This document shows, in pieces, positions 201 through 14,175 of a stretch of DNA of 19,722 nucleotides. The stretch comes from a virus (taxonomy: Duplodnaviria > Heunggongvirae > Uroviricota > Caudoviricetes). The notes under the pieces are model-generated. The model was not told the origin of the DNA. It searched no databases and was given only the letters and a program-made list of their open reading frames with translations. Location: the IMG/VR virus record IMGVR_UViG_2537562019_000014, one strand, 5' to 3'. The stretch's first letter is position 1; each line of letters opens with the position of its first letter. The position numbers and the translations under genes are program-made.

Positions 201-2102
201 ATGAGCAAAGTAAAAATCGGTGAATTAATAAACTCACTTGTTAGCGATGTTGAGTCAATAGATAACTCTGACCGTCCTCAAGGGGAGAAAACAAAAAAAA
301 TAAAGGCTGTTGCATTAAAATTTAAAAATGCATTATTTAATGACAAGCGAAAGTTTAGGGGGAAAGGATTAGAAAAAAGAATTACAGCCAACACATTCAA
401 TGCCTATATGAGCAGGGCCAGAAAACGGTTTGATGATAAACTTCATCATAGCTTTGAAAAAAATATACATCGCCTATCTGAAAAGTATCCTTTATATAAT
501 GAGGAGCTATTGTCATGGCTTTCTCTACCTGCTGCCGATATTCGCCAGAGAATGTCAGCTTTACAGGCAAAATTAAAATTAATTCTCCCTCTATCAGAAG
601 ATTTATCTAATATCAGAATTGGCGATAACAAAAGTCATAATAAGTTATTGAAATTATCAAATAAATATAAAGAGTGGCAATTCGCCATTTCTGATTTAAC
701 TAGCGATAACTGGAAAGATAAGCGCGATTATTTATATAAATTACTACAGCAAGGATCTGCCTTACTTGAGGAGTTGAATCAGCTAAAAGTTAACCATGAG
801 ATTCTCTATCATCTTCAACTAAGCCCTGCCGAACGTGCATCTATCCAGCAACGATGGGCGGACGTTCTGCACAATAAGAAACGTAACGTGGTGGTCATTG
901 ATTACCCTAAATATATGCAAGCTATTTACGATATTATAAATAGCCCTGCTACATTAAATAATCTAAACACTCGTTCAGGTATGGCTCCTTTGGCATTTGC
1001 ACTTGCTGCATTGTCAGGAAGACGAATGATTGAGATTATGTATCAAGGTACATTTACTGTTTCTGGTAAGTATACCGTTGATTTTTTAGGCCAAGCTAAA
1101 AAAAGAACTTCTGATGATATAACCAGAAAAATATATACATTATGCGAAGCAAAAACATTTGTTTATTTAATAAATGTACTTCGCTCATGCCCAGCAGCAT
1201 CTGATTTTGATGATGTCGTTAAAGGTTATGGAGATAACGACACACGCTCTGAAAACGGACGTATTAATGCCATATTAGCAAAGGCTTTTAACCCGTGGGT
1301 TAAATCATTTTTCAAAGATGACCGCCGTGTTTATAAAGATAGTCGTGCTATTTATGCCCGTATTGCGTATGAAATGTTTTTCCGCGTAGATCCTCGTTGG
1401 AAAAACGTAGATGAAGATGTTTTCTTTATGGAAATTTTAGGCCATGACGATGAAAACACTCAATTACACTATAAGCAATTCAAGCTGGCCAACTTCTCAA
1501 AGACATGGAGGCCAAATACTGGAAACGAAAATACCAGGCTGGAAGCATTGCAGCAGCTTGATGACGAAATGCCTGGATTCGCCAGAGGAGATGCCGGGGT
1601 TCGTCTGCATAACACAGTTAAGCAGCTGGTAGAGCAGGACCCCTCTATAAAAATCACGAACAGCACTCTAAGAGCGTTCAAATTTAGCCCAACAATGATT
1701 AGTCGATACCTGGAATTTGCTGCTGATGCTCTGGGGCAATTTGTTGGCGAAAACGGACAATGGCAACTGAAAATAGATACTCCAGAAATCGTTATGCCTG
1801 ACGAAGAAGAACTGGAAGCAATACCTGAACTGGCGGATGAATTGTCAGAGGATGACGATCTGGATGACGACGAAATTGAGATAGAGGAAGAGGAAGAGGA
1901 AGAGGAAGAGAGCGTAGAAGAACAGCAACCGCCTGCACCTTCTTCGCCTGTATCTAAGCCGGTATTTAAGCCGGTGAGAAATATTGGTGATGGCTCATAC
2001 GTTGTTGAGTTTCATTATAATGGCCAGAATTATGCGTGGTCCGGCAGTGCAAACAGCCCCATGTCAGCAATGCAGTTAGCATGGCTGACATATTTCGGTT
2101 AA
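201..2102 (+). CDS. telN: Protelomerase (telomere resolvase) TelN
   Basis: 633-aa ORF with AGGAGAGG RBS; length and N-terminal sequence (MSKVKIGELIN...) closely resemble N15 TelN (631 aa) as recalled; acidic C-terminal linker (run of E encoded by GAGGAA repeats); adjacent to the telO palindrome. Confidence 0.85.
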   Translation: MSKVKIGELINSLVSDVESIDNSDRPQGEKTKKIKAVALKFKNALFNDKRKFRGKGLEKRITANTFNAYMSRARKRFDDKLHHSFEKNIHRLSEKYPLYNEELLSWLSLPAADIRQRMSALQAKLKLILPLSEDLSNIRIGDNKSHNKLLKLSNKYKEWQFAISDLTSDNWKDKRDYLYKLLQQGSALLEELNQLKVNHEILYHLQLSPAERASIQQRWADVLHNKKRNVVVIDYPKYMQAIYDIINSPATLNNLNTRSGMAPLAFALAALSGRRMIEIMYQGTFTVSGKYTVDFLGQAKKRTSDDITRKIYTLCEAKTFVYLINVLRSCPAASDFDDVVKGYGDNDTRSENGRINAILAKAFNPWVKSFFKDDRRVYKDSRAIYARIAYEMFFRVDPRWKNVDEDVFFMEILGHDDENTQLHYKQFKLANFSKTWRPNTGNENTRLEALQQLDDEMPGFARGDAGVRLHNTVKQLVEQDPSIKITNSTLRAFKFSPTMISRYLEFAADALGQFVGENGQWQLKIDTPEIVMPDEEELEAIPELADELSEDDDLDDDEIEIEEEEEEEEESVEEQQPPAPSSPVSKPVFKPVRNIGDGSYVVEFHYNGQNYAWSGSANSPMSAMQLAWLTYFG

Positions 2103-2850: not shown

Positions 2851-3147
2851 GGTATGCACTCCGTTTAATTGGTCGTGCTACCACCAGAGTTCTCACGCTC
2901 TTGAATGGTGGTAGCCCAAGCGGGGGTGAGAATACCGGCAAACGAAGAAACCGGCCTGACCGAAGTCAGCCCCGCCTGAGCCACCATAAATCGGATATGC
3001 GCAGGTATATACACACAAAAAAACACGCTGGCGCGTGTTGTGCGCTTCGTTTATCCGGGTTCTCACGCCCGGCTGCGGAATTTGCCGCAGCGGAGTAACT
3101 TTACCGTCAAAACGACGCACACGTCAATAATTTGCAAAGACATTTTA

Positions 3148-3228: not shown

Positions 3229-3516
3229 TTACGGATTAAGAGAGTGGAAATACCTAACTAACTTACCGGCATCATCACATTTTTCTTTATCTTCTTCCTT
3301 AACATAGCCGCGACAGAAGGCTGAATAAAATTTCGCATTTTCAGAAGCAAAAGCAGCCGTCGAAAGGAGCAGTTCTTTGCATGATTCTTTTGATGCAGCA
3401 TCGGGATTATTTTTACATGCAAGCTCCGCTGATGAGTTAATAACAGAAATGCTATCTTCCTGGGCATAAACCGCAGCAGAAAAGGCAAAACATAAAACCA
3501 AAATAAAACTCTTCAC
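3229..3516 (-). CDS. Secreted/periplasmic small protein with signal peptide (95 aa from the GTG start)
   Basis: GTG at 3516 preceded by AGGAGA with 4-nt spacer; N-terminus MKSFILVLCFAFSAAVYA then QEDS looks like an SPase I signal peptide; 4 Cys in the mature part; the ORF track extends to 3540 without RBS support. Confidence 0.5.
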   Translation of the reverse strand: MKSFILVLCFAFSAAVYAQEDSISVINSSAELACKNNPDAASKESCKELLLSTAAFASENAKFYSAFCRGYVKEEDKEKCDDAGKLVRYFHSLNP

Positions 3517-3543
3517 TTTATCTCCTGTAACAGTTATCACAAC

Positions 3544-3939
3544 TCAATCAACTTTTTTAGCATCAGCCATACGCTTCAACCAGTAATCAACAATCGGCTG
3601 CTCATCCACAGAATGTTTACCAGGTATAACTCGCCAGCTATCTTGCGAAAATCTGCCGTACTTACGCGGGAATAGGCCTTTCTTTATCTCCCGCCATGTA
3701 CTAGGAAAACCATCCACAAAAGTACCAATTAACAGGAGAGGGACAAAAATCAGAGCTACAAACCATCGTGCAAGAAAGTGTTCAACAACAACATTTTCAC
3801 CGTTGTAGTAATACGCATACGCATCCAATATGCGAATTTTCCTTACCTTAAAAATAGCCTTATGCTGAGAACGACTTAACTTGATACGAATGTATCCCTT
3901 ATCCAAAGGGGATTCGTATTTGTATGATTGAACAGCCAT
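3544..3939 (-). CDS. Hypothetical membrane protein (131 aa from ATG)
   Basis: ATG at 3939 lies 2 nt after the stop of the upstream frameshifted ORF; central hydrophobic segment WFVALIFVPLLLIGTFV. Confidence 0.5.
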   Translation of the reverse strand: MAVQSYKYESPLDKGYIRIKLSRSQHKAIFKVRKIRILDAYAYYYNGENVVVEHFLARWFVALIFVPLLLIGTFVDGFPSTWREIKKGLFPRKYGRFSQDSWRVIPGKHSVDEQPIVDYWLKRMADAKKVD

Positions 3940-3941
3940 TT

Positions 3942-4267
3942 TTAACCCCACTCACCATCAGCAAACAAAGCGTTATACTCTGACAATGGTAGACGGTTGC
4001 CCTCGATGTAGAGATTCAGTTCATACTTCGTCTCCGGGTTTTCCTTGTCGGCTCGTTCCCAACGCTCAGCAGCCTCACGCGCCAATAATTCCACTGCTTT
4101 CAGATAATCCTCCGTACGGAACCAGCCAAAGATAAGGCCACGATCTGTTACAGCCCAGGCAACCTTTTTTCTTCCTCCTGGATAGCCTTAATGCGTCGAT
4201 CGCATTCATCCCGGCAAAACTGCAGCTGACGGTAATCAAGTTTGTCCAAAAATGCAGTAGTAGACAT
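3942..4267 (-). pseudogene. Hypothetical ~108-aa gene interrupted by a frameshift at an A6 tract (indel, slippage or sequencing error)
   Basis: ATG at 4267 with GGAG RBS; frame stops at 4148-4150 after 39 codons; the -1 frame is open from the A6 tract (T6 on plus, 4165-4170) to TAA at 3942-3944; one extra A would fuse both parts. Confidence 0.45.
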
Positions 4268-4271
4268 ATTT

Positions 4272-4463
4272 TTACTCCCCGTTCACCGAAAAATCACGAT
4301 AGAAACGTTTCCACATACGATAAGTCTGCGCGAGTTGTTCACCACGAAACATCGCCTTCCTGGCCTTCATGTTTTCCTTGTGAGACTTTCGATCTATGAA
4401 CCAAAACCATTGCTGGAACACACAAAGCAAGAGACACAAAGATAATATCCACTGATTACCCAT
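4272..4463 (-). CDS. Small membrane protein (63 aa) translationally coupled to repA
   Basis: ATG at 4463 overlaps the last codons of repA (TATGGGTAA); hydrophobic N-terminus WILSLCLLLCVFQQWFWFI followed by a basic tail; stop lies 4 nt before the next start. Confidence 0.45.
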   Translation of the reverse strand: MGNQWILSLCLLLCVFQQWFWFIDRKSHKENMKARKAMFRGEQLAQTYRMWKRFYRDFSVNGE

Positions 4464-7400
4464 AGAAAGCGCCCTGCTCTTCGTAGCTGCATGGGCTATT
4501 CCCGGTAATGTATTCACGTAACCGCCGCAGTTCATTGCTGGATAAGTGATCCATGAACTCTGTGAGGTACAGAGATGCAAACGTCATAGCTATGCTGGCT
4601 GATGACCATGATGACATAGTGGCCAGCTCCTCACCGGAAAGCGCACTCATCGCCCAGGACTCAGGTACAACCACTGGCAACACAGCCAAAGCCTCAGAAA
4701 TTACTGAATGAGGGGCGTTTTGAACCTGCTCGTTTGTGGATCGCGTTTTATCATCCATATATATATTGAGATCCAAATCGCGATCCATTTCGATGGCGGT
4801 CTTCTCGGCTTTACGCGTTTTCAGGGTTAGGCCATCTTTCTGACGCTGAGCAAGAATATCCAGCATAAATGCCGCTGATTCAGGCTCAACAAAACGCAAG
4901 GTTGGACGCTTATCGCCGTCTCTGCCGCGACGTTTACCTGTTTTAAGGCCAAGAGAGTCGCAAATGTTTTTAAACAACGCTTCCGGCACTTTAGGCTTCC
5001 CTTTTGGCGTCATAAAACCACCAATGTGCAGAACGTTATTCAACAGGTCACGGCGTTCGGCTGTCATGAGGTTATCTCGAGCAAATTTGAGACGCTCCTG
5101 AGTCGCCTCGCCGGTCATAGTCTCAGGGTTGATACCGCAGTCGATAAAGTACTGCCGGAGAGTTGCTGATTTAAGCGCATAGAAACCGCGCGCCCCGACT
5201 TCAACAGTAGGAGTAGCTTTTACCTTGTGATCGATTATTCCAGGGAATTTAGTTTTAAAGACATCATCAGCCTGCTCGCGAGTCATCGCGGTCACTACAA
5301 AATATTGCCACTGTCCCGCCTGACGGTATGCGTAGGTAAAATTGATGGCTGCTTCTTCCCGGTCGTAACGACGAGCTGTTACCTCATCTAAAAGCATTGT
5401 TTCATAGCGGCGAACTTTGTCTCGAGCACCATCGAAATAGAATTTCAGCGTGCCTTCTTCAACCGGTAGTTTCAGTTCGTTTTCAATATCCCAGCGGACA
5501 AGTTTTGCCTGTTCTTCAAGCGTCAGCGCGCGTTTTTTTAGCAGTTCTTCACGCTCTGATTCTTGTGGAGTTTCTGTATTGAGATGCAGATCCAGTGTCT
5601 GTTCCCACACAATATCCCGCGCTTCTTTACGCAGCTCTTTACCGATATCATTCGCAGCATAATCGGTGGCCAGCGGCGATACCTTATAACCGTCGCTGTG
5701 CATGATGCAGATCATGTTGCTGGCGTAGTCGTTACGCGCAGTCGCTTCAATAGCGGCTGCTTTAATTTTCATCCTGGTAAAGTCGGTATTGGCCACCCCC
5801 ATTGATATACGGTCGCCATCGAAAACGACATCCGTCAGTTCACCGTTCATACCTGCGGTAGCAAGCAATGCCTGGGCGAATGCTCGTTCTATTTTTTGCG
5901 GGTCAGTTTCACGTTTTGCACGAGCTTTATCAAAGCCGATAATAAATTCTTTTGCTGTACGGTCGCGGCGTAGCATTTGCACTGCGTCGCTGGGTACAAC
6001 TTCACCACAGAACATGCCGAAATGACGGTCAAAATGTTTTTGCTCAATCGACACGCCGGATGAAATAGACGGGCTATAAATCAGGCCGTCGTATTTTTTG
6101 ACCATCTTTTTCGGTTGATTGGTAAATGCTTCAACTTCTGGCTCTGGTTTGTTTTTCTGGTTTACACACAGAAATTTCTTACCAGGAAAATGCATTCTCA
6201 GGGTGGCTGTCACATCTTCTGCAAAGGTGGAGCTGTCGGTGGCCAACATGATTTTTTCGCCATCCGATACAGCTTTCACCACCTCGGTCATGATGCGATC
6301 TTTTTCTGTATAAAAAACCCGGATTGGCTCACCTGTTTCGCGGTTGCGAACATCAACAGGTAATTCAATTACGTGGATCTGCAGCCATGCCGGTAAACCT
6401 AGTTCTTCACGGCGTTTCATAGCCAGTTCAGCCAGGTCAACCAGCAGATCATTCGCATCAGCATCCACCATGATTGGGTGTTGTTCTGTTCTGGCCAGCG
6501 CGTCAATTAGCGTATTGAATACAGCCACCGGGTTTTCCATAGCCCGACCGGAAAGAACGGCACGTAGCCCTTGTGTGGCCTCGTCAAAGCCAAAATAGTC
6601 GTGCTGGCGCATCAACGGTTGCCAGCAGTTTTTAACAATCGAGTTTATGCAGATGGTCAGTTTACTGGCGTATGGAGCCATTTCCTGATAGCCAGGATCC
6701 TGATAGTGCAGGATATCGGCTTTTACACCTTTTCCTTCTGTCATCATTTCCCACAGGCCGCCAATAAGGGAGACACGGTGAGCAACAGAGATACCACGTT
6801 CTGAGCTATGCATTAACGGTCGTAACAATCCAGTAGATTTGCCGGAACCCATACCAGCACGGACGATGACTATCCCCTGTAGTGATTGCACGTACTTCAG
6901 GACATCATCGGTCATTACCGAAGTTTCAAAACGCTTATAGGTGATATGTTGAGGGCGTTTATTGGGATCAGTTATGCGTTCGCTGAAAGAGCGCGGAGCC
7001 TGGGCAATACGGCACTTTTTATTCAGGCGACGGGCAATGTGGTCTTTTACCGTAGCGCGATAGATATTTTCCAGTCCCATTTCACGCAGAACGATGCAGA
7101 ACATGTTAAATAAATCTGACGGACTGTTAGGAACCGGACAGGTTAGCATGCCAATATCCACCGCTCTCAGCAGCTCTTTGGCAAAAGTACGACGGTTATC
7201 CCGCTTAATTGTCTTCAGGCGGTTGAGCGTCAGAGATAGCAAATCAGTACCAGTTTTCAGGCGGTTTGCTGTTGCAAATAGTTGACGTGCTGTTTCACGA
7301 AGTCCACGTAGTTTGTGCAGGTCGTTGAAGTCACTGCACTCCATTTGCGGATCGTCTTCAAAAGTTGGATAGACGCAGCGGACATCGTTGAATTTCGATA

Positions 7401-8451
7401 AGATTTCATAGCCAGTCCGCAGGCCGGTATTCCCTTTTCCTTCTGTGGCAGATTTCCGGTCATTATCCAGTGCGCAGGTGATTTTTGCCGCCGGGTACAT
7501 GTTTACCAGTTGTTCCACAACATGAACCATGTTGTTAGCGGATACAGCGACAACCACAGCGTCAAAGCGTTTATCTTTTTTCGTGGCAAGCCAGATGGAT
7601 GCACCAGTAGCAAAACCTTCTGTAACAGCGATGTTTTGCGCCCCTTTCAGCTCACCGATAACAAAGCAGGCACCGACGAAATCGCCGCTGGTTACTGCGC
7701 TGGTCTGGTATTTTCCACCTTGTTTGTCGATTCGCTGCCAACCCACAATACGACCATCGTAACGACCGTCCAGGTGAGCCAGAGGGATAGCCATATACGT
7801 GGTTGGCCCCCTGCTCCATTTTGCGCTGTCGTGACTGGTCACGCGACGCACATCACACGAATTAAAAACGTCACGAATACCTTTTTTAATCGCATATGGC
7901 CATGAGCCGTCTTCTGCAGGAGCATGTTCCCACGCGCTGTGAAATGCCAGCCATCCCAGCAAACGTTCATGGTCAATTTGGTTGTTTTTCAGGTCATTAA
8001 TTCGTTTTTGTTCTTCACGGCGACGACGTGCTTCGGCCTGACGTTCTATTCTTGCCCGTTCTTCTTCCGGTTGTGCGACCACGGTCGCATTATTCCGTTG
8101 TTGCTCACGGCGATATTCAGAAAACAGGAAGGAGAAACCGCTCCATGAGCCAGCATCGCTGCCTTTATGGACGAAGTTAATGAACGGGTAATCAATCCCT
8201 TTGCTGTGTTCCAGCCGGGAGTAAATTTCTACGCGTCCTTTGAGGCTCTTCTCGAGAGCTTCTGGAGATGTTTTATTGTATGAAGAGTAACGCTCAACAC
8301 CCCCGCGAGGGTTGAGTTGGATGTTGTCGGAACAGGCAGGCCAGTTGATACCAGCCATCTGTGCCAGCTCGGTTAGTTCATCCCGTGCTGCTTCAATTAG
8401 CGAGAACGGATCGCTGCCAAAGCGATCCGCATAGAAATCGTTTAATGTCAT
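4456..8451 (-). CDS. repA: Replication protein RepA, multidomain primase-helicase
   Basis: 1331-aa ORF; Walker A motif GMGSGKST; TOPRIM-like primase region; size and position match N15 RepA (about 1324 aa) located between telN and cB. Confidence 0.85.
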   Translation of the reverse strand: MTLNDFYADRFGSDPFSLIEAARDELTELAQMAGINWPACSDNIQLNPRGGVERYSSYNKTSPEALEKSLKGRVEIYSRLEHSKGIDYPFINFVHKGSDAGSWSGFSFLFSEYRREQQRNNATVVAQPEEERARIERQAEARRRREEQKRINDLKNNQIDHERLLGWLAFHSAWEHAPAEDGSWPYAIKKGIRDVFNSCDVRRVTSHDSAKWSRGPTTYMAIPLAHLDGRYDGRIVGWQRIDKQGGKYQTSAVTSGDFVGACFVIGELKGAQNIAVTEGFATGASIWLATKKDKRFDAVVVAVSANNMVHVVEQLVNMYPAAKITCALDNDRKSATEGKGNTGLRTGYEILSKFNDVRCVYPTFEDDPQMECSDFNDLHKLRGLRETARQLFATANRLKTGTDLLSLTLNRLKTIKRDNRRTFAKELLRAVDIGMLTCPVPNSPSDLFNMFCIVLREMGLENIYRATVKDHIARRLNKKCRIAQAPRSFSERITDPNKRPQHITYKRFETSVMTDDVLKYVQSLQGIVIVRAGMGSGKSTGLLRPLMHSSERGISVAHRVSLIGGLWEMMTEGKGVKADILHYQDPGYQEMAPYASKLTICINSIVKNCWQPLMRQHDYFGFDEATQGLRAVLSGRAMENPVAVFNTLIDALARTEQHPIMVDADANDLLVDLAELAMKRREELGLPAWLQIHVIELPVDVRNRETGEPIRVFYTEKDRIMTEVVKAVSDGEKIMLATDSSTFAEDVTATLRMHFPGKKFLCVNQKNKPEPEVEAFTNQPKKMVKKYDGLIYSPSISSGVSIEQKHFDRHFGMFCGEVVPSDAVQMLRRDRTAKEFIIGFDKARAKRETDPQKIERAFAQALLATAGMNGELTDVVFDGDRISMGVANTDFTRMKIKAAAIEATARNDYASNMICIMHSDGYKVSPLATDYAANDIGKELRKEARDIVWEQTLDLHLNTETPQESEREELLKKRALTLEEQAKLVRWDIENELKLPVEEGTLKFYFDGARDKVRRYETMLLDEVTARRYDREEAAINFTYAYRQAGQWQYFVVTAMTREQADDVFKTKFPGIIDHKVKATPTVEVGARGFYALKSATLRQYFIDCGINPETMTGEATQERLKFARDNLMTAERRDLLNNVLHIGGFMTPKGKPKVPEALFKNICDSLGLKTGKRRGRDGDKRPTLRFVEPESAAFMLDILAQRQKDGLTLKTRKAEKTAIEMDRDLDLNIYMDDKTRSTNEQVQNAPHSVISEALAVLPVVVPESWAMSALSGEELATMSSWSSASIAMTFASLYLTEFMDHLSSNELRRLREYITGNSPCSYEEQGAFYG
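4737..4787. other. Candidate replication origin inside the 3' end of repA
   Basis: 9-bp inverted repeat TGGATCGCG / CGCGATCCA flanking a (TA)5 AT-rich core; three GATC sites within 50 bp; N15 ori is known to map within the 3' part of repA. Confidence 0.3.
8072..8089. repeat. SopB-type centromere-like palindrome, copy 1 (inside repA coding sequence)
   Basis: TGTGCGACCACGGTCGCA, 7-bp inverted arms with AC centre; closely resembles the F sopC SopB-binding repeat TGGGACCACGGTCCCA; one of four copies in the window. Confidence 0.55.
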
Positions 8452-8696: not shown

Positions 8697-9293
8697 TCAT
8701 CTACCCTCAACCATGAATGATTTGATCGTTCCGACTATTTGGTGAACAAATTCAAGATCGCTTTTCCTGAAGATAGCGCGTTGTGAGTTTGTTCCATCCA
8801 GATAGTAATTTTCATCATCAAAACGGGCTAGGCGCTGGATAGTGATATTTCCTGCAGTATCACGAACCAGAACATCCTCGCCGGGGACCAGTTCCAGCGC
8901 AGAATCGACCAGGAGAAAATCGCCTGGCTGATAGTTTCCCTGCGTAAGATTGCTGATAGTTAACGCATACACAGTATTGCGCTGGCTGATGAATGGCAGG
9001 AATCGCTCAGTATTTGGAACCTGTCCCGGCTTCCACTCTTCATCAGGCCCACTTTCAGTTGTGCCAATAACAGGAATGCGATCAGGGTCATATTCTGTCC
9101 CATATAGCACCCAATGTACTGGCTTGCGTAAGCACTTAGCCAGGGCAATACCTATCTCCAGTGACGGCATTACGTCGCCACGTTCTAAGTTTTGGACGCC
9201 TGCTATAGAGATATCGACAGCCTCAGCAACTTCTCGCAACGTCAGCTTCATCTCTAAACGGCGTGCTTTCAGTCGTTCGCCTCGTGTTTTCAT
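8697..9293 (-). CDS. cB: CI-like prophage repressor (HTH N-terminal domain, LexA/CI-type C-terminal domain)
   Basis: 198-aa ORF divergent from a cro-like gene with operator palindromes between them; N-terminal XRE-type HTH (LTLREVAEAVDISIAGVQNLERG); position matches N15 cB. Confidence 0.8.
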   Translation of the reverse strand: MKTRGERLKARRLEMKLTLREVAEAVDISIAGVQNLERGDVMPSLEIGIALAKCLRKPVHWVLYGTEYDPDRIPVIGTTESGPDEEWKPGQVPNTERFLPFISQRNTVYALTISNLTQGNYQPGDFLLVDSALELVPGEDVLVRDTAGNITIQRLARFDDENYYLDGTNSQRAIFRKSDLEFVHQIVGTIKSFMVEGR

Positions 9294-13577: not shown

Positions 13578-13865
13578 TCAATAGACGGCATTAATATTAA
13601 TCGTTGCACCGCATGCTTGGGCATATTTTGATAAAGTTTTCATGCTTGCCCCTAAAGGATTGCTTTCCAGGCGGCTGATAGCTGACGGGCGCAATCCCAT
13701 TCGTTCAGCCAGAGCTGACTTCGTTAAACCTGCTCTTTCCCTCATTTCGTATAACATTTCGACCATCTCCAGCTCTTTATCGGCCTCTTCATATCCTTTG
13801 ATGGCTTCTGGAGTGTTGAGAAGTTTTTCTTTTACTTCGTTAAACGGGATGCCTTTCGCTTTCAT
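13578..13865 (-). CDS. HTH (XRE-type) antitoxin, HigA-like
   Basis: 95-aa ORF with C-terminal HTH (LTKSALAERMGLRPSAISRLE); start overlaps the stop of the upstream toxin-like reading frame (TGATG). Confidence 0.7.
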   Translation of the reverse strand: MKAKGIPFNEVKEKLLNTPEAIKGYEEADKELEMVEMLYEMRERAGLTKSALAERMGLRPSAISRLESNPLGASMKTLSKYAQACGATININAVY

Positions 13866-14175
13866 CAGTTCATCTCCTTCAGGCGAGTTCTGGCGATTTC
13901 GATAGCCTTCACCGGTGTTTTCTGTGTCTTTTTTACAAATGCATGCAATAGATAAATTTCGTTACCAGTCGCGTAGGCGTACAGCGTTCTTGCGATGTTT
14001 TTTTCCCCTACTCGTATTCAAAAAGCCCTCCACCTATTACACGGCTATGGGGCATCTTCAGTTTGTTGCCTTCTTTCTCCAGTCGCTCAATTAATCTGGT
14101 CATGCGACCTCGCAAATCATCTGGTAGTTCAAGCAGTTCATCCAGTGCTGCAGGGTGGGTTATCACGTTAAACAT
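13865..14175 (-). pseudogene. HigB/RelE-like toxin (Gp49 family) disrupted by a 1-nt frameshift
   Basis: ATG 14175 with GGAGG RBS; frame stops at TAG 14008-14010 after ...GGGLFEYE; the -1 frame continues GEKNIARTLYAYATGNEIYLLHAFVKKTQKTP...; restoring one nt near 14014-14016 gives a contiguous ~103-aa toxin. Confidence 0.6.

What the first reader, a model, noticed from the sequence alone, without database searches (positions are those of the whole stretch)
3942..4267. Frameshift at an A6 tract followed by a rare AGG codon inside the operon
The reading frame that starts at ATG 4267 stops after 39 codons, while the -1 frame stays open for 81 further codons. One extra A in the A6 run (plus-strand T6 at 4165-4170) would give a single 108-aa protein. 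In the zero frame the ribosome reads AAA then AGG, so a -1 slip would read AAA AAG. This could be a programmed -1 frameshift, a phase-variable homopolymer, a real pseudogene or a sequencing error.
Basis: seen in the sequence. Interest (0 to 1): 0.5.

Follow-up and report, generated by a model that had tools for sequence, protein, structure and literature searches.

The report
Frameshift mutation in a prophage gene
One A has been lost from a run of seven in a small gene of unknown function on an N15-like phage-plasmid, splitting a normally single 108-amino-acid protein; this is an ordinary, recurrent slippage mutation and not a programmed frameshift.

Summary
The ORF from ATG 4267 stops after 39 codons (TAA 4150-4148). 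An A6 run lies at 4165-4170, and the -1 frame is open to TAA 3944-3942. Adding one A gives a 108-aa protein.

The gene is the orthologue of phage N15 gp35 (phrog_10878, function unknown). It sits in the repA operon of an N15-like linear plasmid-prophage (contig APXB01000119.1).

Every orthologue examined has A7 or a broken-up run and one uninterrupted ORF of 107-111 codons. The repaired product is identical to WP_001495878.1. There is also no canonical slippery heptamer, no downstream structure, no Rfam hit and no conserved tract.

It is probably not a sequencing error either. A separate assembly of run SRR446711 reproduces A6. In the window, 31 of 32 other homopolymers of 6 nt or more match the nearest relative. 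A6 and A8 alleles also occur in other strains, always as tree tips 0-1 substitutions from an A7 neighbour, on about 0.6% of contigs at most.

Best reading: a recent replication-slippage mutation giving a null or leaky allele. Low interest.

The parts
4148..4267 (-). 5' fragment of the N15 gp35-family gene: 39 codons plus a premature TAA (4150-4148). Residues 1-34 are wild type and the last 5 (RLPGL) are out of frame.
   Evidence: Identical to residues 1-34 of WP_001495878.1. Exact 39-aa product on record as P0076.
4165..4170 (-). A6 homopolymer (T6 on the plus strand). It is a contracted form of the A7 run found in all close orthologues, and it is the frameshift site.
3942..4187 (-). Open -1 frame (81 codons plus TAA 3944-3942). 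From AAG/GTT onward it encodes residues 35/36-108 of the family protein: the whole beta-sheet and helical core, including the invariant A37 W38 W49 R51 T52 Y55 K57.
   Evidence: frame. (conservation). (model, pLDDT 92).
4456..8451 (-). repA (CyRepA1-family primase/origin-binding replication protein, 1331 aa). First large gene of the operon; intact.
3544..3939 (-). Next gene downstream (131 aa, phrog_15458, function unknown). Its ATG lies 2 nt after the gp35-like stop (TAAAAATG), so the premature stop 200 nt upstream may uncouple or polarise its expression (inferred).
3229..3516 (-). Last gene of the operon (95 aa, phrog_26765). Intact.
3022..3039 (-). Terminator-like stem-loop followed by a T-run, closing the repA-gp35-like operon. 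N15 has an annotated rho-independent terminator at the equivalent place.

Best explanation
The window is part of an N15-like linear plasmid-prophage (telomere phage) of E. coli. The gene is the orthologue of N15 gene 35. It encodes a conserved single-chain protein of about 108 aa with unknown function, and it is transcribed in the repA operon.

In this particular prophage copy, a run of seven A's (GAA GAA AAA AAG) has lost one A, most likely by replication slippage. Ribosomes therefore read AAA AGG TTG CCT GGG CTG TAA and release a 39-aa peptide. That peptide holds only the N-terminal helix and lacks the entire conserved core.

The allele is therefore a null allele. At most it is a weak hypomorph, if a small fraction of ribosomes slip -1 on AAA while waiting for the rare AGG codon, or if RNA polymerase adds an A. 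Either event would regenerate exactly the wild-type protein.

Shown here:
- The ancestral state is A7.
- The mutation is recent: no other change in the gene, and 1-2 substitutions from an A7 relative over 2-3 kb.
- The same kind of change recurs in other lineages, always at tree tips and at very low frequency.

Inferred, not shown:
- Replication slippage as the mechanism.
- Loss of function.
- Possible polarity on the downstream genes.
- Any leaky rescue.
For: Ancestral state and gene identity:
- Orthologues have A7 and one 108-aa CDS: 17 RefSeq E. coli plasmids and 27 PLSDB plasmids by alignment length, base-level checks, 11 of 11 IMG/VR loci, 10 of 10 metagenome loci and 8 of 8 P0079 carriers.
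- N15 gp35 is a 109-aa single ORF with the run broken up as GAA GAG AAA AAG.
- All 39 complete distant loci are single ORFs of 107-111 codons, with runs of A3 to A7.
- The protein is conserved on both sides of the site. The family profile matches the repaired protein end to end.
- The confident model places the site between helix 12-31 and strand 34-41.

Recent origin:
- The repaired product is identical to WP_001495878.1/P0074.
- The nearest A7 relative, L028, differs by 1 substitution in 2256 nt and 2 in 3188 nt.

Real rather than artefact:
- The same allele appears in the SRR446711 assembly, 100% identical over 4522 nt.
- 31 of 32 homopolymers of 6 nt or more match L028 in length.
- The second frameshift in the window (RelE) is not in a homopolymer.

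Recurrent and transient:
- A6 occurs on two other clean backbones and on the GGTC haplotype. A8 alleles also exist.
- Fitch parsimony needs at least 6 changes from an A7 root, and every variant is a tip.
- Variants are on about 20 contigs, against more than 3300 contigs with intact products.
Against: - No read pileup could be inspected, so a platform-specific miscall in the window's read set cannot be strictly excluded. SRR446711 is probably the same read set as the NCBI assembly, so it is independent in assembler only.
- About half of the other A6/A8 contigs carry further homopolymer indels and are probably noisy-read artefacts. The true recurrence count is therefore lower than 6.
- The loss-of-function claim rests on conservation and a predicted structure, not on experiment. 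The function of the protein is unknown.
Confidence: 0.78

Rival explanations
1. Sequencing or assembly error: the strain really has A7 and the contig miscalls the homopolymer length.
For: - All close relatives have A7.
- The gene carries no other change.
- Homopolymer miscalls at this very run clearly occur in noisy public assemblies: L035, L045, L046, L049, L050 and L052-L054 carry other homopolymer indels too.
- CP088430.1 shows the error style of such assemblies.
Against: - An independent k-mer assembly of SRR446711 gives the identical A6 sequence.
- In the window, 31 of 32 runs of 6 nt or more, including A/T runs of 7-8, match the nearest relative in length over 14.7 kb.
- The only other 1-nt indel is outside any homopolymer.
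- A6 is also seen in clean contigs of other strains: L021/L023, L047, L048 and L051.
Confidence: 0.1
2. Phase-variable (contingency) tract: the A7 run is maintained because reversible A6/A7/A8 switching turns the lysogen-expressed gene off and on to the phage's or host's advantage.
For: - Length changes at this run are recurrent, in both directions and on both local haplotypes (P0075/P0076 for A6, P0071/P0087 for A8).
- At least 6 changes are needed on the tree.
- A7 occurs in several distinct codon contexts across homologues.
Against: - Off alleles are on about 0.6% of contigs or fewer, and roughly half of these look like read errors.
- Every variant is a tip with no persistence.
- The tract is not conserved at the nucleotide level: A3, A4, A5 and A7 all encode the same E-K-K.
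- Seven A's is short for an efficient switch. Selection against A/T runs typically becomes evident at about 9 nt (PMC1088944).
Confidence: 0.06
3. Functional recoding: full-length protein is made from the A6 allele by programmed -1 ribosomal frameshifting (P-site tRNA-Lys slipping on A_AAA at the hungry AGG codon) or by transcriptional slippage.
For: - A -1 slip on AAA before the rare AGG, or one extra A in the mRNA, would give exactly the wild-type 108-aa protein.
- P-site slippage next to rare arginine codons, and unprogrammed suppression of 1-nt deletions at a few percent, are documented in E. coli (PMC10861913).
- Lys codons in A-runs are notably shifty in E. coli (PMC5009743).
Against: - The two-frame arrangement is absent from every orthologue.
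- There is no X_XXY_YYZ heptamer in the A6 allele.
- Downstream folds are no more stable than shuffles (z = +0.3 to +1.25).
- No Rfam frameshift element is found.
- The upstream AGGAGG is only 5 nt from the AAA codon. To my knowledge that spacing favours +1 shifts and not -1 shifts.
- Hungry codons matter more for +1 than for -1 shifts (PMC5009743).
- A6 is well below the roughly 9-nt runs used for transcriptional slippage (PMC1088944).
Confidence: 0.04

Closest known systems
Phage N15 gene 35 product (gp35, AAC19077.1) / phrog_10878
   Same: Same family: the repaired protein matches the PHROG profile over its full length (E = 4e-52). It aligns with N15 gp35 along its whole length. The position is the same, downstream of repA in an operon closed by a terminator.
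   Different: In the window the gene is split by a 1-nt deletion. N15 and all other members are single ORFs, and N15 has no A7 run at the site (GAA GAG AAA AAG).
E. coli dnaX programmed -1 frameshift (A_AAA_AAG plus upstream SD-like element plus downstream stem-loop)
   Same: Lysine-codon A-run. The wild-type A7 allele carries A_AAA_AAG in frame. A -1 shift at the window's site would use the same tRNA-Lys.
   Different: The window's allele has A_AAA_AGG, which is not a tandem-slippage heptamer. There is no stimulatory hairpin. The SD-like AGGAGG is at the wrong spacing. The arrangement is not conserved, and the shift would be needed to make the only functional product rather than a second one.
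Homopolymer frameshift pseudogenes and 'savior indel' alleles with compensatory low-level frameshifting (for example the G7 run of herpesvirus thymidine kinase; PMC5009743)
   Same: A 1-nt change in a 7-nt homopolymer inactivates the gene, while leaving open a route to trace amounts of full-length protein.
   Different: There is no evidence here that the off allele is selected or that the trace product matters. The alleles are rare and confined to tree tips.
Simple-sequence contingency loci (phase variation by mononucleotide tracts, as in Neisseria, Haemophilus and Campylobacter)
   Same: Recurrent +1 and -1 changes in a coding mononucleotide run.
   Different: The tract is short and not conserved at the nucleotide level, off alleles are under 1%, and there is no sign of maintained switching.

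Membership tests
N15 gp35 family (phrog_10878) | Full-length sequence match to the family profile | tested here: met
   Repaired 108-aa product: E = 4e-52, profile positions 1-104 of 104. 72 homologues, mostly 108-109 aa.
N15 gp35 family (phrog_10878) | Position downstream of repA in an N15-like telomere phage-plasmid | tested here: met
   RepA at 4456-8451, protelomerase at 201-2102, and the same gene order as N15 and its relatives.
N15 gp35 family (phrog_10878) | Single uninterrupted ORF of about 108 codons | tested here: not met
   The window copy is split at the A6 run. It is a disrupted allele of a family member.
Programmed -1 ribosomal frameshift site | Slippery heptamer X_XXY_YYZ in the zero frame | tested here: not met
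   The zero frame reads GA A_AAA_AGG, so only a tetramer A_AAA is available for P-site slippage.
Programmed -1 ribosomal frameshift site | Stimulatory downstream stem-loop or pseudoknot | tested here: not met
   Folds of the 60-81 nt downstream of and spanning the site give z = +0.32 to +1.25 against shuffles. No Rfam match at E up to 1.
Programmed -1 ribosomal frameshift site | Two-frame arrangement conserved among orthologues | tested here: not met
   All orthologues are single ORFs.
Programmed -1 ribosomal frameshift site | Measurable trans-frame product | not testable with these tools
   Needs a reporter assay or proteomics.
Transcriptional-slippage recoding site | Long A/T run (typically 9 nt or more) conserved with an out-of-frame downstream ORF | tested here: not met
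   The run is 6 nt. Homologues have 3-7 nt, all in frame. The length criterion is from PMC1088944.
Phase-variable simple-sequence contingency locus | Recurrent independent length changes of the tract | tested here: inconclusive
   At least 6 changes on the NJ tree, but about half of the variant contigs show other homopolymer errors.
Phase-variable simple-sequence contingency locus | Appreciable frequency of both on and off alleles among close relatives | tested here: not met
   About 20 variant contigs against more than 3300 contigs with intact exact products. 0 of 21 IMG/VR and metagenome loci are variant.
Phase-variable simple-sequence contingency locus | Tract conserved at the nucleotide level beyond the coding requirement | tested here: not met
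   The same E-K-K is encoded with A3, A4, A5 or A7 in different lineages.
Sequencing artefact (homopolymer miscall) | Other homopolymer-length discrepancies in the same contig | tested here: not met
   31 of 32 runs of 6 nt or more are identical in length to L028 over 14.7 kb.
Sequencing artefact (homopolymer miscall) | Allele not reproducible from the reads or in other samples | tested here: not met
   The same A6 appears in the Logan assembly of SRR446711, and in SRR25936202 and SRR25936285 on a different backbone.

The most novel reading that the evidence does not exclude
The A7 tract could be a low-rate contingency switch for a lysogen-expressed gene of the repA operon. Under this reading, A6 and A8 'off' alleles arise repeatedly. 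The A6 form would stay slightly leaky through -1 P-site slippage of tRNA-Lys at AAA before the rare AGG codon, giving a 'savior-indel'-like hypomorph. Such a hypomorph might be favoured when the gp35-family protein is costly or is targeted by the host.
Probability: 0.05. Interest if true: 0.45.

Novelty: already known. Interest (0 to 1): 0.12.

Why it matters
The practical value is for annotation. The two small ORFs called at 4148-4267 and 3942-4094 should be annotated as one frameshifted gp35-family gene, not as two genes or a recoding site.

The case also illustrates a general point. An A_AAA_AAG-type run in a phage accessory gene is a minor mutational hotspot, and its variants appear at tree tips in large sequence collections. 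About half of such public 'alleles' are read-error artefacts, recognisable by other homopolymer indels in the same contig.

Nothing here bears on an open question about recoding.

Tried and rejected
- Pfam and NCBIfam scans of the repaired protein and its neighbours gave nothing for the gp35-like gene.
- PHROGs gave only 'unknown function' families.
- The GTDB representative-genome scan for the site found 0 matches.
- Foldseek of the confident model (pLDDT 92) found nothing significant in the PDB (best E = 4.6). In BFVD it found only a weak match to N15 Gp34 (E = 0.24, TM 0.57), so no function could be assigned.
- The only paper mentioning gp35 together with N15 and protelomerase (PMC12042878) uses the gene numbering of phage NAR688, so it is not informative about this family.
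It succeeded later through its protein id.
- A single origin of A6 shared by the window and L021/L023 was considered, because they share a near-identical block from 4080 to 7267. It was rejected as the simplest reading. Each has an A7 neighbour that is closer (1 substitution) than they are to each other (6 substitutions in 2256 nt). The R-to-C change in L021/L023 is an existing intact haplotype (P0079, 147 contigs). Recombinational transfer cannot be fully excluded.
- The 50-aa GTG-initiated ORF (3942-4094) as an independent gene was rejected. It has no convincing Shine-Dalgarno sequence upstream, and it lacks strands 34-50 with the invariant W38, W49, R51 and T52.

Full report
**1. The observation**

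Read on the minus strand:
- ATG at 4267 opens an ORF that reads ...ATC CAG GAG GAA GAA AAA AGG TTG CCT GGG CTG TAA. It ends after 39 codons at TAA 4150-4148.
- The A6 run corresponds to plus-strand T6 at 4165-4170.
- The -1 frame is open for 81 codons (4187-3945) and stops at TAA 3944-3942.
- Adding one A gives a continuous 108-aa ORF.

With the local base composition, an open stretch of 73-81 codons has a chance probability of about 0.01-0.015.

**2. What the locus is**

The window is contig APXB01000119.1 of NCBI assembly GCA_000356365.2. It carries the left-central part of an N15-like linear plasmid-prophage:
- protelomerase (201-2102, + strand)
- the 1331-aa CyRepA1-type RepA primase (4456-8451, - strand)
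- a CI-like repressor (8697-9293, - strand)
- Cro, Q, a RelE/antitoxin pair, a methyltransferase, lysis genes and terminase

The split gene lies directly downstream of repA. It is followed by a 131-aa gene and a 95-aa gene, then a terminator-like hairpin at 3039-3022. N15 has the same layout and an annotated terminator at the equivalent place. 'Inside the operon' is therefore correct.

The repaired protein matches phrog_10878 over its full length (E = 4e-52). The gene aligns with N15 gene 35. Pfam and NCBIfam have no model for it.

**3. Orthologues**

In E. coli plasmids pG749_3 and p13TMH22-2 and in phage PhiR46_1, the same position carries one annotated 327-nt CDS with GAA GAA AAA AAG, that is A7. 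The window's repaired product is identical to WP_001495878.1 of pG749_3.

| Collection | Result |
|---|---|
| RefSeq E. coli plasmids | All 17 matches are one base longer than the query over the region |
| PLSDB plasmids | 25 of the 27 likewise; the outliers are CP088430.1 (A7 at base level, with G-run deletions typical of noisy assemblies) and OY754439.1 (79% identity, four bases longer) |
| IMG/VR viral contigs | 11 of 11 are A7 |
| Metagenome contigs | 10 of 10 are A7 |
| Carriers of haplotype P0079 | 8 of 8 are A7 |
| N15 gp35 | 109-aa single ORF with GAA GAG AAA AAG |

Among 40 more distant viral loci, the E-K-K motif is encoded with runs of A3, A4, A5 or A7, and all 39 complete ones are a single ORF of 107-111 codons; the fortieth (L083) runs off its contig end. 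A database search gives 72 homologues across Escherichia, Salmonella, Citrobacter, Klebsiella, Enterobacter and Serratia, overwhelmingly 108-109 aa.

The alignment shows invariant residues on both sides of the site: S2, L7, L10, Q14 and C22 upstream, and A37, W38, W49, R51, T52, Y55, K57 and A58 onward downstream.

An AlphaFold model (pLDDT 92.1) has this order of elements: helix 12-31, strands 34-41 and 46-50, helix 52-72, strand 87-94, helix 95-101. The frameshift sits at the helix-strand junction. The 39-aa product therefore keeps only the N-terminal helix.

**4. Programmed frameshift?**

In addition:
- The A6 allele offers A_AAA_AGG, which is not an X_XXY_YYZ heptamer.
- The 60-81 nt downstream of and spanning the site fold no better than shuffled sequence (z = +0.32 to +1.25).
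- No Rfam family matches at E up to 1.
- The upstream AGGAGG ends 5 nt before the AAA codon. From my own knowledge of dnaX and prfB, that spacing is associated with +1 stimulation and not -1 stimulation. The element is absent in N15.
- Six A's is well below the roughly 9-nt runs at which transcriptional slippage becomes significant in many bacteria (PMC1088944).

What remains possible is unprogrammed leakiness. A -1 P-site slip of tRNA-Lys on AAA before the rare AGG, or one extra A in the transcript, would give exactly the wild-type protein. Unprogrammed suppression of 1-nt deletions at a few percent, including at sites next to rare arginine codons, has been documented in E. coli (PMC10861913). 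The review PMC5009743 notes that hungry codons matter more for +1 than for -1 shifts.

**5. Error or real mutation?**

The exact 39-aa product is on record in the NCBI contig and in three Logan assemblies.
- SRR446711 is 100% identical to the window over 4522 nt. It is probably the same strain, so it is independent only in assembler.
- SRR25936202 and SRR25936285 carry one and the same different phage: 97 and 55 mismatches to the window, with a mosaic boundary near 4080.

Against its nearest A7 relative L028, the window has only three indels in 14.7 kb (13 substitutions):
- a 6-nt repeat-unit difference in the protelomerase gene
- the A-run
- a 1-nt deletion in the RelE toxin that is not in a homopolymer

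Of 32 runs of 6 nt or more, 31 have the same length in the window and L028. This is not the signature of a homopolymer-error-prone data set. I could not inspect reads, so a residual chance of error of about 10% remains.

**6. Recurrence**

Exact look-ups gave these contig counts:

| Product | Allele | Contigs |
|---|---|---|
| ...KRLPGL (39 aa, P0076) | A6, window haplotype | 4 |
| ...KRSPGL (39 aa, P0075) | A6, GGTC haplotype | 10 |
| 64 aa (P0087) | A8 | 3 |
| 64 aa (P0071) | A8 | 2 |
| Intact 108 aa (P0078) | A7 | 966 |
| Intact 108 aa (P0074) | A7 | 173 |
| Intact 108 aa (P0079) | A7 | 147 |

On a 2256-nt alignment, every A6 or A8 carrier is 0-1 substitutions from an A7 neighbour, while the window and L021 are 6 apart. 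Fitch parsimony on the NJ tree needs at least 6 changes from an A7 root, and all variants are tips.

A quality check splits the variant contigs:
- **Clean** (the A-run is the only homopolymer indel): window/L022, L021/L023, L047, L048, L051, and L036 for A8.
- **Noisy** (further homopolymer indels, probably read errors): L035, L045, L046, L049, L050 and L052-L054.

Conservatively, A7 to A6 has therefore happened several times in real genomes, never persists, and accounts for well under 1% of copies. This is the behaviour of a modest replication-slippage hotspot producing short-lived, probably mildly deleterious or neutral, loss-of-function alleles. It is not the behaviour of a maintained switch.

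**7. State of the prophage**

Of 29 genes compared with pZ1323HEC0355-3, only two are split in the window: the gp35-like gene and the RelE/ParE toxin. The element is otherwise intact.

**8. Verdict**

The finding is a correct observation of an ordinary event: a recent 1-nt contraction of an A7 run in an N15 gp35-family gene. This gives a truncated 39-aa product and an orphaned 3' reading frame.

Programmed frameshifting is not supported. Sequencing error is unlikely but not excluded. Adaptive phase variation is unsupported. The protein's function remains unknown: there is no significant structural neighbour, and the best hit is N15 Gp34 with TM 0.57 and E = 0.24.

Novelty: already known kind. 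Interest is low.

Noticed in passing
window 13865-14175 (- strand), deletion at about 14016: The RelE/ParE (Gp49-like) toxin gene has a 1-nt deletion outside any homopolymer (GAACTACGAG becomes GAA-TACGAG), giving a 55-aa truncated product. The HTH antitoxin (13578-13865) is intact. This is the only other split gene among 29 compared. The truncated product was found only in this NCBI contig.
   Followed up: partly
window 1883-1910 (+ strand, inside the protelomerase gene 201-2102): A perfect hexanucleotide tandem repeat (AGAGGA x 4.7) varies in copy number among relatives. It gives protelomerases of 629, 631, 633, 635, 637, 639 and 641 aa, in steps of 2 aa. This is a genuine in-frame simple-sequence polymorphism.
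   Followed up: partly
window 4164-4171 and orthologous A7 loci (for example L016, L017): The wild-type A7 allele places the dnaX-type heptamer A_AAA_AAG in the zero frame. A -1 slip there would give the same 64-aa product as the A8 alleles (P0071/P0087). In N15 the -1 frame closes after about 7 codons, so a conserved second product seems unlikely.
   Followed up: partly
window about 3920-4080 compared with L021/L023: There is a sharp mosaic boundary inside or just after the gp35-like gene. Upstream (4080-7267) the two phages differ by about 0.4%. Downstream (3540-3950, the 131/133-aa gene) they differ by about 10%. This suggests recombination between telomere-phage lineages at this point.
   Followed up: partly
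model of P0001 compared with N15 Gp34 (O64344): The best structural neighbour of the gp35-family model is the adjacent N15 gene product Gp34 (Foldseek probability 0.87, TM 0.57, E = 0.24, 16% identity). This is a weak hint that genes 34 and 35 are diverged tandem paralogues.
   Followed up: no
window 2865-2987 (- strand): A 40-aa Phage_ASH (PF10554) remnant. The equivalent locus is annotated in RefSeq relatives as an incomplete 'ash family protein' pseudogene.
   Followed up: no
window 3229-3516 (- strand): The 95-aa last gene of the operon is labelled 'Spackle exclusion protein' in the PhiR46_1 record. It matches only unknown-function PHROGs (phrog_26765). In Klebsiella telomere phages the repA-to-protelomerase interval holds a toxin-immunity cassette (PMC12042878), so this interval appears to be a lysogen-expressed cargo region.
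   Followed up: no
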